This document shows positions 1 to 1,376 of a stretch of DNA of 1,376 nt, piece after piece. The translations under genes and the position numbers were made by a program. Source of the DNA: Naegleria gruberi. Lineage: Eukaryota. The first letter of the stretch is position 1. Every line of letters starts with the position of its first letter. Where the stretch lies: NCBI GenBank assembly GCA_000004985.1, contig GG739434.1. One strand, given 5' to 3'. Below the pieces are notes generated by a model. The model was not told where the DNA came from and searched no databases. It saw only the letters and a program-made list of their open reading frames with translations.

Positions 1-83
1 GGATATCATAATGAATCATCATATCATTAAAATAAATTATCTCTTTAAATCTTTGAAAATTCAATGTTTGATTCACTATCACT

Positions 84-124
84 GTGTCATCCCGAATAAA
101 CTTGAAAGCTGCTTCAGAGGTACT
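84..124. repeat. Left arm of a long imperfect inverted repeat (pairs with 284..333)
   Basis: gtgtcatcccgaataaacttgaaagctgcttcagaggtact. The reverse complement of 284..333 is gtgacatcccgaataaagtttgaagctcgttttttttcagtcaaggtact. The outer 17 nt match 16/17 (gtgNcatcccgaataaa). Further in, gaagct, ttcag and aggtact match with small indels. Confidence 0.7.
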
Positions 125-128
125 CGAA

Positions 129-146
129 AGCCCTCTAATTGGACAT
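129..146 (+). repeat. Direct repeat copy 1 (agccctcTAAttggacat); partner at 251..268
   Basis: 15/18 identity with 251..268 (agccctcATTttggacat). The blocks agccctc and ttggacat are identical in both copies. Confidence 0.5.
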
Positions 147-206
147 AAAATGCTGGTTTTTTGCAATTCTAGATACCTAGAAATAAAATTAAAGACCTGG
201 ACAACA

Positions 207-226
207 AAAAACTCGCAAAAACTCGC
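207..226 (+). repeat. Tandem duplication of a 10-mer (aaaaactcgc x2)
   Basis: aaaaactcgc at 207..216 is repeated exactly at 217..226 and followed by gaaa. It sits centrally in the island. Confidence 0.6.
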
Positions 227-250
227 GAAATCATATCAAAGTTTAGCACT

Positions 251-268
251 AGCCCTCATTTTGGACAT
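251..268 (+). repeat. Direct repeat copy 2 (agccctcATTttggacat)
   Basis: See copy 1. A third tggaca occurs at 197..202 (cctggacaac). Confidence 0.5.
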
Positions 269-283
269 CTAGATTGAAAACAA

Positions 284-333
284 AGTACCTTGACTGAAAA
301 AAAACGAGCTTCAAACTTTATTCGGGATGTCAC
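284..333. repeat. Right arm of the long imperfect inverted repeat (pairs with 84..124)
   Basis: agtaccttgactgaaaaaaaacgagcttcaaactttattcgggatgtcac. The core tttattcgggatg (318..330) is the exact reverse complement of catcccgaataaa (88..100). Confidence 0.7.
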
Positions 334-432
334 CACATTATAATTTTAAAAAAAAATAGTCGAAACTATTATTAGTTCATCATTCACTTAGGAATAATAT
401 TATCAACTTTAAAAAATAATAGGAATACCAAG
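334..432 (+). promoter_or_regulatory. Putative AT-rich promoter / 5' leader of the F-box-LRR gene
   Basis: A >85% AT stretch lies between the island and the ATG. It contains tataa at 339..343, about 90 nt upstream of the ATG, followed by an A9 run at 348..356. The ATG context caagATGa has an A at -3. No TSS can be assigned from sequence alone. Confidence 0.3.
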
Positions 433-1376
433 ATGAATCAATTACAAGAAGATAATTATTATGAAATATTAAAATATTTAGATTTTAAAGACTTGTTATT
501 AAATTGTACACTTGTTTGTAAAATGTGGAATTTTATTATTAATAAAAAATTAAAATTTGGAATTTCAATTAATCATGAAAAAGTATTAAAAAAATTTCAA
601 TCTTCAATTTCATGTTTTAAATTTGTAAATTCATTAAAATCTAATTGTTTCAAACATGGCATGTTGGATAAATTTACAAATTTAGAATATTTAAAACTTT
701 CATGTCAGGAAAATATTCATACAAAAATAATTGAATTTAAAAATTTAAAATATTTAAATATAAAATATGTTAAAATTAATTTGGAAAAATTTGAACAAAT
801 TTGTAAAAATTTAAAATATTTGAAATCATTTAAATTTCAAAATTCTCTTCCAATTAGTGATTGTATTAATATATTAATTAAATACTTACCAAATATAGAG
901 AATACAAATCTTACTAATGTTGGAAGTGATGAAATTAAATTATTAACACATTTAAAAAATTTAAAAAATTTAAATTTAAAAAATATTAAAAATGAAGGGT
1001 TTGAAGTAATTTGTAATTCATTTAAAAATTTAAATTCTTTAAAATTACCAGATAATTCAATTTCAAATTTCAAACCAATTACTAATTTAGTAAATTTAAC
1101 AAAATTATCAATTGATTCAAATATGGAAATTAATCAAAATATGGAATTTATTTGTAAATTAATTAAATTAAAATATTTAAATTTAAATTATTCTTTAATT
1201 ACAACAGAAAATGTTCAATTAATTTGTAATTCTTTAAAAAATTTAAATTATTTATCTTTAAAAGCAAACAAGTTAAAAAATGATTCAATTAAATTTATTA
1301 AAAATTTAAATCAATTAACAAATTTAAATTTAGAAACTAATTTATTAGAAACTGATTCAATTTCATATTTAAATGA
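433..1376 (+). CDS. F-box / leucine-rich-repeat protein (FBXL-like SCF substrate adaptor), 5'-complete, 3'-truncated by window end
   Basis: First in-frame ATG after a TAA at 391-393. The frame stays open for 314 codons plus 2 nt to the window edge. My translation starts MNQLQEDNYYEILKYLDFKDLLLNCTLVCKMWNFIINKKLKF, an F-box-like pattern (L..E.L..IL.YLD.KDLL....VCK.W). From about aa 82 it shows ~18-26-aa periodic repeats of the form x-h-x-x-I-C-x-x-L-K-N-L-x-x-L-x-L, for example EGFEVICNSFKNLNSLKL, ENVQLICNSLKNLNYLSL and QNMEFICKLIKLKYLNLN. These are typical of cysteine-containing LRRs. Codon usage (tta Leu, aaa Lys, aat Asn, caa Gln, tgt Cys) and an A at -3 before the ATG fit an AT-rich eukaryote. 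Confidence 0.8.
   Translation, partial: MNQLQEDNYYEILKYLDFKDLLLNCTLVCKMWNFIINKKLKFGISINHEKVLKKFQSSISCFKFVNSLKSNCFKHGMLDKFTNLEYLKLSCQENIHTKIIEFKNLKYLNIKYVKINLEKFEQICKNLKYLKSFKFQNSLPISDCINILIKYLPNIENTNLTNVGSDEIKLLTHLKNLKNLNLKNIKNEGFEVICNSFKNLNSLKLPDNSISNFKPITNLVNLTKLSIDSNMEINQNMEFICKLIKLKYLNLNYSLITTENVQLICNSLKNLNYLSLKANKLKNDSIKFIKNLNQLTNLNLETNLLETDSISYLN
445..564 (+). other. F-box motif-encoding segment of the CDS (aa ~5-44)
   Basis: The translated segment QEDNYYEILKYLDFKDLLLNCTLVCKMWNFIINKKLKFGI matches the F-box consensus by eye: the hydrophobic/Leu spacing, the conserved LD..DLL pair, and V-C/S-K-x-W. No HMM search was possible. Confidence 0.6.
994..1047 (+). repeat. LRR-unit coding repeat (DNA-level copy A); partners at 1207..1260 and, more weakly, 1135..1188
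   Basis: gaagggtttgaagtaatttgtaattcatttaaaaatttaaattctttaaaatta is compared with 1207..1260, gaaaatgttcaattaatttgtaattctttaaaaaatttaaattatttatcttta. They share taatttgtaattc exactly and are ~85% identical over the following ~20 nt. Both are 18 codons. Confidence 0.55.

What the first reader, a model, noticed from the sequence alone, without database searches (positions are those of the whole stretch)
84..333. Inverted-repeat-bounded, GC-richer 250-bp island immediately upstream of the F-box/LRR gene promoter
GC content rises to ~37% (92 G+C in 250 nt by my count) in a locus that is otherwise ~15-18% GC. The island is closed by a long imperfect inverted repeat: the outer 17 nt match 16/17, and the match extends with indels to ~40-50 nt per arm (84..124 versus 284..333). 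This fits two readings: (a) a miniature inverted-repeat transposable element inserted next to a promoter, or (b) a stand-alone structured RNA whose 5' and 3' ends pair into a long closing stem. I could not match it to any family from memory. The sequence immediately outside the arms (…tatcact | element | caccaca…) does not show an obvious target-site duplication. That counts against a recent cut-and-paste insertion, but it does not exclude an old one.
Basis: seen in the sequence. Interest (0 to 1): 0.55.

Follow-up and report, generated by a model that had tools for sequence, protein, structure and literature searches.

The report
Orphan inverted-repeat element upstream of gene
A 250-base, GC-richer block closed by a real 40-50-base inverted repeat sits about 100 bases upstream of an F-box/LRR gene; it looks like a small non-coding transposon relic (MITE-like) more than an RNA gene, but no second copy could be found anywhere, so mobility is unproven.

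Summary
Positions 84-333 have 92 G+C in 250 nt (36.8%), against 15.6% for the rest of the window. The GC step falls exactly at the tips of an inverted repeat, 84-124 versus 284-333. Its outer 17 nt match 16/17, and 36 pairs form overall with three indels.

All of the fold signal comes from these arms. Both strands fold far better than shuffles (z -5.2 and -4.1). The interior, 125-283, folds no better than shuffles (z -1.2 and +0.1). The arm mismatches show no G·U bias, T-runs interrupt both strands, and Rfam and ARAGORN find nothing. This symmetry at the DNA level favours a MITE-like element over a stand-alone structured RNA.

Two defining MITE features are missing or untestable. There is no target-site duplication. 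No other copy exists in IMG/VR, the JGI metagenomes, the GTDB genomes, or the phage and plasmid collections, and a protein search with the element's ORF against 5.8 billion proteins found nothing. The source genome itself is absent from all of these.

The downstream gene's only relatives that also align across the F-box are Naegleria F-box/LRR proteins at about 26% identity, so the source is probably an unsampled, extremely AT-rich protist or giant virus.

Verdict: a real, unclassified, probably ordinary feature. Interest is low to moderate.

The parts
84..124 (.). Left arm of the terminal inverted repeat. The 17-nt tip is GTGTCATCCCGAATAAA (84-100).
   Evidence: (I19) and the gapped alignment. 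43.9% GC.
284..333 (.). Right arm of the terminal inverted repeat. The reverse complement of its tip is GTGACATCCCGAATAAA (317-333). It carries an A8 run at 297-304 that accounts for the 7-nt indel against the left arm.
   Evidence: 38% GC.
125..283 (.). Interior of the element. It is non-coding, 34.6% GC, and has no significant fold on either strand, but it has an excess of direct repeats.
   Evidence: z -1.17 and +0.11. (direct 7-mers: 9 against 1.6 expected, P about 0.002; inverted 7-mers not enriched, P 0.13).
129..146 (+). Direct repeat copy a, AGCCCTCTAATTGGACAT. It is subterminal, just inside the left arm.
   Evidence: D15, 83% identity to copy b. One search suggests the similarity extends weakly to 104-146 against 227-268.
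251..268 (+). Direct repeat copy b, AGCCCTCATTTTGGACAT. It is subterminal, inside the right arm, and has the same orientation as copy a.
   Evidence: (D15).
207..226 (+). Tandem decamer AAAAACTCGC, two copies. On the minus strand it forms a terminator-like hairpin (229->212) followed by a T6 tail (211->202).
   Evidence: k-mer positions. (1 terminator-like site against 0.1 expected). The hairpin is present in the minus-strand MFE and centroid structures.
167..182 (.). Small internal palindrome TTCTAGATACCTAGAA. TCTAGAT recurs at 268-274.
   Evidence: The hairpin appears in every plus-strand fold. K-mers.
157..162 (+). T6 run on the plus strand, 74-79 nt from the left tip. This is a likely Pol III or early termination signal for any plus-strand transcript that starts at the tip.
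   Evidence: Sequence and (TTTTTTG at 157). The termination role is inference from general knowledge of Pol III.
334..432 (+). 99-nt AT-rich spacer (20.2% GC) between the element and the ATG. It contains the perfect palindrome ATTATAAT (337-344) next to the right tip and AGGA 8 nt before the ATG. It is presumed to hold the promoter and 5' UTR of the gene.
   Evidence: Sequence, and a weak promoter-like match at 345-372. The function is inferred, not shown.
433..1376 (+). Context only: an F-box plus leucine-rich-repeat ORF that runs off the window. It spans 314 codons at 14.6% GC, with no Arg and one Ala.
   Evidence: (PF00646, 26.6 bits against a cut-off of 20.5; LRR_14 E 4e-8). (Naegleria gruberi P0060, 26% identity, E 9e-19, aligned from the F-box onward).

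Best explanation
The block 84-333 is most likely a single copy, probably old and no longer mobile, of a small non-autonomous DNA transposon: a MITE-like element.

Inferred mechanism: a transposase encoded elsewhere would recognise the roughly 17-bp termini GTG(T/A)CATCCCGAATAAA, and perhaps also the subterminal AGCCCTC-N3-TTGGACAT motifs. It would cut the element out and paste it in. This copy landed in what was a roughly 150-bp AT-rich intergenic spacer, about 100 bp upstream of the start codon of an F-box/LRR gene.

What is shown: the element is non-coding, and its G+C content (37%) marks it as compositionally foreign to its surroundings (16-21%).

What is inferred: any RNA-level effect would be secondary. 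If read-through transcription crosses the element, the arms would form a stem of about 40 bp. That stem could block or terminate transcription, or feed an RNAi pathway, as reported for thug-S in Dictyostelium. Mobility, the transposase and any regulatory effect are all inferred.
For: 1. The inverted repeat is real and terminal. The gapped alignment stops exactly at 84 and 333 even when flanks are offered. The tips match 16/17.
2. The GC step coincides with the repeat tips: 21.7% | 43.9% ... 38.0% | 20.2%. The unit therefore behaves as one inserted block, not only as a stem.
3. The signal is symmetric between strands (z -5.15 and -4.08). It disappears when the arms are removed (z -1.17 and +0.11).
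4. There is no coding capacity. The only ORF longer than 45 aa (62 aa, GTG start) has no Pfam hit, and no protein among 5.8 billion shares three 5-residue words with it.
5. The interior is enriched in direct repeats, not inverted ones. This is a common layout for transposase-binding subterminal repeats.
6. Removing the block leaves a 152-nt spacer (31-83 plus 334-432) of uniform 20-22% GC.
7. There is no tRNA and no Rfam family.
8. Precedents exist for MITE-like elements in AT-rich amoebae and in giant viruses: thug elements (PMC5633606, PMC4894637), Submariner in Pandoravirus (PMC4495683), and the Pithovirus repeats (PMC10664404).
Against: 1. There is no target-site duplication at the 83|84 and 333|334 junctions for any length, and none with TA or TWA in register (sequence). 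The only candidate is a 3-nt 'CAC' offset by one base, which is well within chance.
2. No second copy was found anywhere. The 20-mer tip gave 0 hits in the metagenome and genome collections. The 17-mer tip gave 4 + 46 + 72 loci, all of them isolated 17-22-nt matches; all but three are 41-66% GC and none is below 32.8%. The two-arm pattern gave 0. Blastn against phages and plasmids gave nothing. This absence is weak evidence, because the window's own sequence is missing from these collections too.
3. No autonomous partner or transposase is known.
4. The arms differ by 4 mismatches and 3 indels, so if this was ever mobile the copy is not recent. Yet it has kept 37% GC in a 16-21% GC background, which sits uneasily with neutral decay.
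Confidence: 0.45

Rival explanations
1. A stand-alone structured non-coding RNA of about 250 nt whose 5' and 3' ends pair into a long closing stem. It would be detectable as a GC-rich island in an AT-rich genome.
For: GC-rich islands are a classic signature of RNA genes in AT-rich genomes (general knowledge). The full-length fold is far more stable than shuffles on both strands. The block has kept 37% GC against an AT-biased background, which would fit selective constraint.
Against: All of the stability comes from the arms, and the 159-nt interior folds like shuffled sequence on both strands. The four arm mismatches are T·T, C·C, G·A and A·C on the plus strand; only the last becomes a G·U on the minus strand, so neither strand is marked out as the RNA. 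A T6 run at 157-162 on the plus strand, and a T8 run (reverse complement of 297-304) only 30 nt into the minus strand, would stop Pol III before the arms could pair. No Rfam family matched at E<=1 on the whole window, and the best sub-threshold hit reached 19.5 bits against a gathering score of 50. There is no tRNA or tmRNA. By reading the sequence I did not see RNase P/MRP P4 partner strands, an SRP helix-8 motif or U3 boxes. No homologs exist to test covariation.
Confidence: 0.12
2. A fixed, non-mobile cis-regulatory module of the F-box/LRR gene or of a divergent upstream gene. It would be a GC-richer promoter or enhancer block carrying repeated protein-binding motifs, or a terminator or insulator hairpin between two genes.
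For: It lies 100 nt upstream of the ATG. It has repeated motifs in direct orientation: TTGGACAT twice plus CTGGACAA, AAAAACTCGC twice, and TCTAGAT twice. There is a terminator-like hairpin with a T-run on the minus strand. In AT-rich eukaryotes, regulatory boxes are typically the G/C-containing patches of intergenic DNA (general knowledge).
Against: A 41/50-nt inverted repeat whose tips are separated by 250 nt is not a usual feature of promoters. The sharp composition step exactly at the repeat tips looks like an insertion boundary. The hairpin polyadenylation signals of mimiviruses have short loops, not 160-nt loops (general knowledge). Nothing here can test binding or activity.
Confidence: 0.15
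3. A non-functional relic, such as a fragment of horizontally acquired or degraded GC-richer DNA that underwent a local inverted duplication of about 45 bp. It would be neither mobile nor transcribed for a purpose.
For: It is single-copy as far as can be seen. There is no target-site duplication. The arms are imperfect and carry indels. Positions 227-268 resemble a degenerate direct copy of 104-146, which suggests local duplication events.
Against: No similarity to any protein or DNA that could be the donor. Inverted duplications that end exactly at both composition boundaries would be a coincidence. The 13-nt perfect core, CATCCCGAATAAA, is well preserved.
Confidence: 0.18
4. If the source is a bacterium, a small-RNA gene on the minus strand of about 125 nt. 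It would start near the right tip, downstream of the TATAAT at 342->337, and end at the hairpin and T-run at 229->202.
For: ATTATAAT (337-344) reads TATAAT on both strands and ends 4-9 nt from the right tip (sequence). A terminator-like hairpin with a T6 tail lies on the minus strand (1 found against 0.1 expected). AGGA lies 8 nt before the ATG of the downstream gene, which would fit a bacterial ribosome-binding site.
Against: The promoter scan calls no minus-strand promoter there, because the -35 region is poor. A U8 run 30 nt into this transcript would be odd. The model leaves the left arm and the inverted repeat unexplained. The only relatives of the gene that also align across its F-box are eukaryotic, from Naegleria. 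Rfam finds nothing.
Confidence: 0.05

Closest known systems
Eukaryotic MITEs in general (for example Stowaway and Tourist types), and the Thug elements of Dictyostelium discoideum in particular
   Same: The element is small (250 bp) and non-coding, has terminal inverted repeats, sits in an intergenic site near a gene, and lies in a very AT-rich, amoeba-like genomic context. Thug-S is reported to give rise to hairpin-derived small RNAs (PMC4894637, PMC6161686), which is the secondary effect proposed here.
   Different: There is no target-site duplication, no second copy is known, and the transposase superfamily cannot be assigned from the tip GTG(T/A)CATCCC. The downstream protein has no Dictyostelium hit among the named proteins, and no protein anywhere exceeds 38% identity to it, so the source is not D. 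discoideum.
MITEs of giant viruses: Submariner in Pandoravirus salinus (PMC4495683) and the M1/M2 repeats of Pithovirus (PMC10664404)
   Same: These are non-coding inverted-repeat elements in the intergenic DNA of amoeba-associated genomes that also carry expanded F-box, LRR or ankyrin families.
   Different: Those elements are multicopy and sit in genomes that, from memory, are much richer in G+C than this window. Submariner has TA duplications. No sequence similarity was found in IMG/VR.
Bacterial MITEs and palindromic elements (Correia/CREE, ERIC, Rickettsia palindromic elements)
   Same: They have imperfect terminal inverted repeats, are 100-250 bp long, and are intergenic. Some carry promoter or terminator activity, and some lack clear duplications.
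   Different: They are defined by high copy number within a genome. There was no hit in 185,579 GTDB species representatives beyond chance 17-mers. The neighbouring gene looks eukaryotic or viral.
Long-closing-stem RNAs (6S RNA, adenovirus VA / EBER-type RNAs, pri-miRNA-like hairpins)
   Same: The 5' and 3' ends pair into a long imperfect stem.
   Different: The interior is unstructured, there is no strand asymmetry, T-runs interrupt both strands, and no covariance-model match was found.

Membership tests
MITE (miniature inverted-repeat transposable element) | Terminal inverted repeats at both ends | tested here: met
   Arms 84-124 and 284-333; tips match 16/17; 36 pairs in total.
MITE (miniature inverted-repeat transposable element) | Small size (under about 800 bp) and no coding capacity | tested here: met
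   250 bp. The longest ORF is 62 aa with a GTG start, with no Pfam hit and no word-sharing protein among 5.8 billion.
MITE (miniature inverted-repeat transposable element) | Target-site duplication flanking the inverted repeats | tested here: not met
   The flanks are ...ATCACT | element | CACATTA... There is no direct repeat of any length in register. TA sites (77-78 and 339-340) are not adjacent to the inverted repeats. Only an off-register 3-nt CAC is present.
MITE (miniature inverted-repeat transposable element) | Multiple dispersed copies in the host genome | not testable with these tools
   The source genome is absent from every collection: the window's own 20-mer tip gives 0 hits. There is only one copy in the 1376-nt window. 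No relative was found in the viral, metagenome, GTDB, phage or plasmid collections.
MITE (miniature inverted-repeat transposable element) | Related autonomous element with matching termini and a transposase | tested here: inconclusive
   No locus containing the 17-mer tip shows extended similarity or a second inverted tip. The host genome could not be searched.
Structured non-coding RNA gene | Match to a curated RNA family | tested here: not met
   Rfam 15: 0 hits at E<=1 on the whole window. The best hit on 60-360 scored 19.5 bits against a gathering score of 50. ARAGORN found 0.
Structured non-coding RNA gene | Fold stability beyond composition, spread over the whole molecule and specific to one strand | tested here: not met
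   The full length gives z -5.15 and -4.08 on the two strands. The interior alone gives z -1.17 and +0.11. No G·U bias in the arms.
Structured non-coding RNA gene | Compensatory base changes in homologs | not testable with these tools
   No homologous sequence was found in any collection.
Structured non-coding RNA gene | A defined transcript with its own promoter and terminator | not testable with these tools
   No expression data are available. T6 (157-162, plus strand) and T8 (304-297, minus strand) lie inside the putative RNA. This is sequence only.

The most novel reading that the evidence does not exclude
The block is a functional long-hairpin RNA locus in an unsampled, extremely AT-rich protist or giant-virus genome. 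It could be a new structured RNA held shut by a closing stem of about 40 bp. It could instead be a domesticated MITE whose hairpin transcript is processed into small RNAs, or insulates or terminates transcription next to an F-box/LRR gene. On this reading its 37% GC is maintained by selection and does not simply reflect a recent insertion.
Probability: 0.1. Interest if true: 0.5.

Novelty: new member of a known kind. Interest (0 to 1): 0.25.

Why it matters
If it is a MITE, it would mark a DNA-transposon family not represented in any of the collections searched, in a lineage that is itself absent from those collections. That lineage is extremely AT-rich and carries Naegleria-type F-box/LRR genes. 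The element sits where it could alter expression of a gene from a family often expanded in amoebae and their parasites. That outcome is useful for annotation but is not surprising. It would matter more only if the source proves to be a giant virus, where MITEs are rare, or if the hairpin is transcribed and processed. On present evidence it is a well-defined but ordinary-looking orphan element.

Tried and rejected
1. Known RNA families. Rfam on the whole window (E<=1) and on 60-360 (E<=10) gave only chance-level hits: SNORD107 at 19.5 bits against 50, plus miRNA precursors and Pseudomonas P1. ARAGORN found nothing. By reading the sequence I did not see RNase P/MRP P4 partner strands, an SRP helix-8 motif, U3 boxes or C/D boxes.

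2. Other copies, searched by DNA.
- 17-mer tip in IMG/VR: 4 chance hits.
- 20-mer tip in the metagenome and GTDB collections: 0 and 0.
- 17-mer tip in the same two collections: 72 and 46 loci, none with similarity beyond 17-22 nt and none with a second tip.
- Internal motif AGCCCTCWWWTTGGACAT in IMG/VR: 2 chance hits in contigs of 50-59% GC.
- Two-arm pattern: 0.
- Blastn against phages and plasmids: none.

3. Other copies, searched through spurious ORFs. Exact look-ups of ORFs 84-272, 150-272 and 11-148 found nothing on record. A homology search with the 62-aa ORF found no candidate.

4. Identifying the source through the F-box/LRR protein. The best hits are at most 38% identical and match the LRR region only. 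P0001 turned out to be a planctomycete LRR protein. The only matches that also align across the F-box are from Naegleria gruberi. The search for related loci with the protein found nothing, and with an alignment it could not be run.

5. Literature. A search for the tip sequence gave one unrelated paper. The Glöckner 2001 description of the thug elements is not held, so no comparison with thug sequences was possible. No paper in the held library links MITEs with Heterolobosea.

6. Dictyostelium discoideum as the source: rejected. None of the named proteins is from Dictyostelium, and no protein anywhere exceeds 38% identity. By my own reading of the codons, GGT is never used for Gly, whereas I recall it as the favoured Gly codon in D. 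discoideum.

7. Ciliates as the source: rejected. By my own reading, Gln is encoded by CAA/CAG, and there is no in-frame TAA or TAG in 314 codons.

8. TA, TWA and 3-10-bp target-site duplications at shifted boundaries: none convincing.

Full report
**What is in the sequence**

The window is 1376 nt and extremely AT-rich. Positions 84-333 contain 92 G+C in 250 nt (36.8%), and the remainder is 15.6%. By part, the G+C content is as follows:

| Region | G+C |
|---|---|
| 1-83 | 21.7% |
| 84-124 (left arm) | 43.9% |
| 125-283 (interior) | 34.6% |
| 284-333 (right arm) | 38.0% |
| 334-432 | 20.2% |

The composition therefore changes abruptly at the same two positions where the inverted repeat begins and ends.

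The repeat finder reports arms 84-110 and 307-333, 27 nt and 85% complementary (I19). I also ran a gapped local alignment of 70-135 against the reverse complement of 275-350, so flanks were included. It begins and ends exactly at 84-124 and 284-333. It has 36 matches, 4 mismatches and indels of 1, 7 and 3 nt, and the outer 17 nt match 16/17. The 7-nt indel is the A8 run at 297-304.

**Is it more than chance?**

Yes. The RNA fold gives -63.5 kcal/mol for the plus strand, against -40.8 ± 4.4 for dinucleotide shuffles (z -5.15, 0 of 200 shuffles as good). The minus strand gives -72.5 against -53.3 ± 4.7 (z -4.08, 0 of 200). With DNA parameters z is -3.59. Inverted 7-mers number 14 against 3.4 expected, with 0 of 1000 shuffles reaching that count. 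A cruder gapped-alignment shuffle test was less extreme, at 5 of 300.

**Where the signal lies**

With the arms removed, the 159-nt interior (125-283) folds no better than shuffled sequence on either strand (z -1.17 and +0.11). The interior is not enriched in inverted k-mers (P 0.13-0.30) but it is enriched in direct repeats (7-mers: 9 against 1.6 expected, P about 0.002). These direct repeats are:
- AGCCCTCTAATTGGACAT (129-146) and AGCCCTCATTTTGGACAT (251-268)
- a tandem AAAAACTCGC, two copies (207-226)
- TCTAGAT, twice (168-174 and 268-274)

An alignment suggests that 227-268 is a degenerate direct copy of 104-146.

The four arm mismatches are T·T, C·C, G·A and A·C on the plus strand. Only the last becomes a G·U, and only on the minus strand. 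Nothing therefore indicates selection for pairing in one particular RNA strand.

Both strands carry T-runs inside the unit: T6 at 157-162 on the plus strand, and T8 (the reverse complement of 297-304) only 30 nt into the minus strand. Runs of this kind terminate Pol III. That is an inference from general knowledge, not a test made here.

Rfam 15 gives no hit at E<=1 on the whole window. On 60-360 it gives only chance-level hits, the best at 19.5 bits against a gathering score of 50. ARAGORN finds no tRNA or tmRNA. The only sizeable ORF (84-272, 62 aa, GTG start) has no Pfam match, and no protein in the 5.8-billion-sequence database shares three 5-residue words with it.

**Surroundings**

An ORF runs from 433 off the end of the window. 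It spans 314 codons at 14.6% GC, with no arginine and one alanine. It has an N-terminal F-box (PF00646, 26.6 bits against a cut-off of 20.5) followed by leucine-rich repeats.

Neither the word-indexed search nor the exhaustive HMMER search of 1.84 billion representatives finds anything above 38% identity. Most of the hits are LRR-only matches. The top hit, P0001, lies in a planctomycete-type gene neighbourhood. The only relatives that also align across the F-box are Naegleria gruberi F-box/LRR proteins (P0060, 26% identity, E 9e-19).

The source is therefore an unsampled, extremely AT-rich organism. It may be a protist related to or resembling heteroloboseans, or a giant virus of such hosts. 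Willaertia magna (24.8% GC, fragmented assembly; PMC6892926) is an untested lead.

Between the element and the ATG lie 99 nt at 20% GC. They begin with the palindrome ATTATAAT (337-344) and end with AGGA 8 nt before the ATG. Upstream, frame 1 of the plus strand stops at 28-30, and a minus-strand ATG at 22-20 is open to the window edge. The neighbouring gene's orientation cannot be decided.

**Search for relatives**

| Query | Collection | Result |
|---|---|---|
| 17-nt tip GTGWCATCCCGAATAAA | IMG/VR | 4 loci |
| 17-nt tip | GTDB genomes | 46 loci |
| 17-nt tip | JGI metagenomes | 72 loci |
| 20-nt tip | metagenomes and GTDB genomes | 0 and 0 |
| Two-arm pattern | IMG/VR | 0 |
| Internal direct-repeat motif | IMG/VR | 2 chance hits, 50-59% GC contigs |
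| Blastn, whole window | phages | none |
| Blastn, 60-360 | plasmids | none |
| Exact look-up of three window ORFs | gene-position index | none |

Every locus hit by the 17-nt tip contains one isolated 17-22-nt match. All but three of these loci are 41-66% GC and none is below 32.8%. None has a second inverted tip or any further similarity to the element.

The window's own tip is absent from every collection, so the source genome is simply not there. The lack of copies therefore says little about copy number in the host.

**Interpretation**

The anatomy is a discrete block, compositionally foreign and non-coding. Terminal inverted repeats close it, both strands give an equal signal, and the interior is unstructured but rich in direct repeats. 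This is what a non-autonomous DNA transposon looks like. It is not what a compactly folded RNA looks like. I therefore rank a MITE-like element first, with confidence 0.45.

Two defining MITE features keep this from being a membership claim. No target-site duplication exists at the junctions (...ATCACT|GTGTCAT...ATGTCAC|CACATTA...), and none appears with TA or TWA in register. Multicopy status cannot be tested.

The arms have diverged (4 mismatches, 3 indels), so this copy would be old. Retaining 37% GC in a 16-21% background is then somewhat unexpected. That leaves room for a selected function.

The rivals are:
- a stand-alone structured RNA (0.12)
- a fixed cis-regulatory or terminator block (0.15)
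- an inert relic with a local inverted duplication (0.18)
- if the host is bacterial, a roughly 125-nt minus-strand sRNA running from the TATAAT at the right tip to the hairpin and T-run at 229->202 (0.05)

**Comparison with known systems**

In working terms the element resembles eukaryotic MITEs, including the Thug elements of Dictyostelium. The thug-S hairpins are reported to yield miRNA-like RNAs (PMC4894637, PMC6161686, PMC5633606). It also resembles the MITEs of giant viruses (PMC4495683, PMC10664404). It shares no detectable sequence with anything in the collections I could search, and I could not obtain thug sequences to compare. I found no report of MITEs in Heterolobosea in the held literature.

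**Verdict**

It is best read as an unclassified, orphan MITE-like element next to a promoter. The structured-RNA reading is weakened but not excluded. It is a new member of a known kind at most. Interest is low to moderate (0.25), because nothing unusual in mechanism is indicated and the decisive tests need the source genome.

Noticed in passing
window 433-1376 (+): The F-box/LRR ORF has an extreme composition: 14.6% GC, no arginine and a single alanine in 314 residues. No protein in 15 billion is more than 38% identical. The only matches that also align across the F-box are Naegleria gruberi F-box/LRR proteins (about 26% identity). The source lineage appears to be unsampled in public protein sets.
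   Followed up: partly
window 672-1340 (+): The LRR coding region contains DNA-level direct repeats spaced 210 and 213 nt apart (for example 775, 985 and 1198, at 67-79% identity). This suggests recent internal duplication of blocks of about 71 aa, each covering multiple LRRs (D1-D4, D12, D13).
   Followed up: no
window 202-229 (-): A terminator-like hairpin (TTCGCGAG TTTT TGCGAG; 7 pairs including 2 G·U) is followed by TTTTTTGTTG on the minus strand. It is formed by the tandem AAAAACTCGC decamers. One such site was found against 0.1 expected in shuffles.
   Followed up: partly
window 337-344: The perfect palindrome ATTATAAT starts 4 nt beyond the right tip of the element. It reads TATAAT on both strands, so it could serve as a TATA box or -10 element for the downstream gene, or for a minus-strand transcript entering the element.
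   Followed up: no
window 129-146 and 251-268; also 199-205: The subterminal motif AGCCCTC-N3-TTGGACAT occurs twice in direct, not inverted, orientation. A third GGACA occurs in CTGGACAA (198-205). These are possible protein-binding sites, and the asymmetric arrangement is unexplained.
   Followed up: partly
window 1-83: The end of the neighbouring gene is ambiguous. Plus-strand frame 1 reads GYHNESSYH* and stops at 28-30. The minus strand has ATGATG at 22-17 (MMIHYDI...), open to the window edge. AAAATTCA at 56-63 is one mismatch from the mimivirus early-promoter octamer AAAATTGA (recalled from memory).
   Followed up: no
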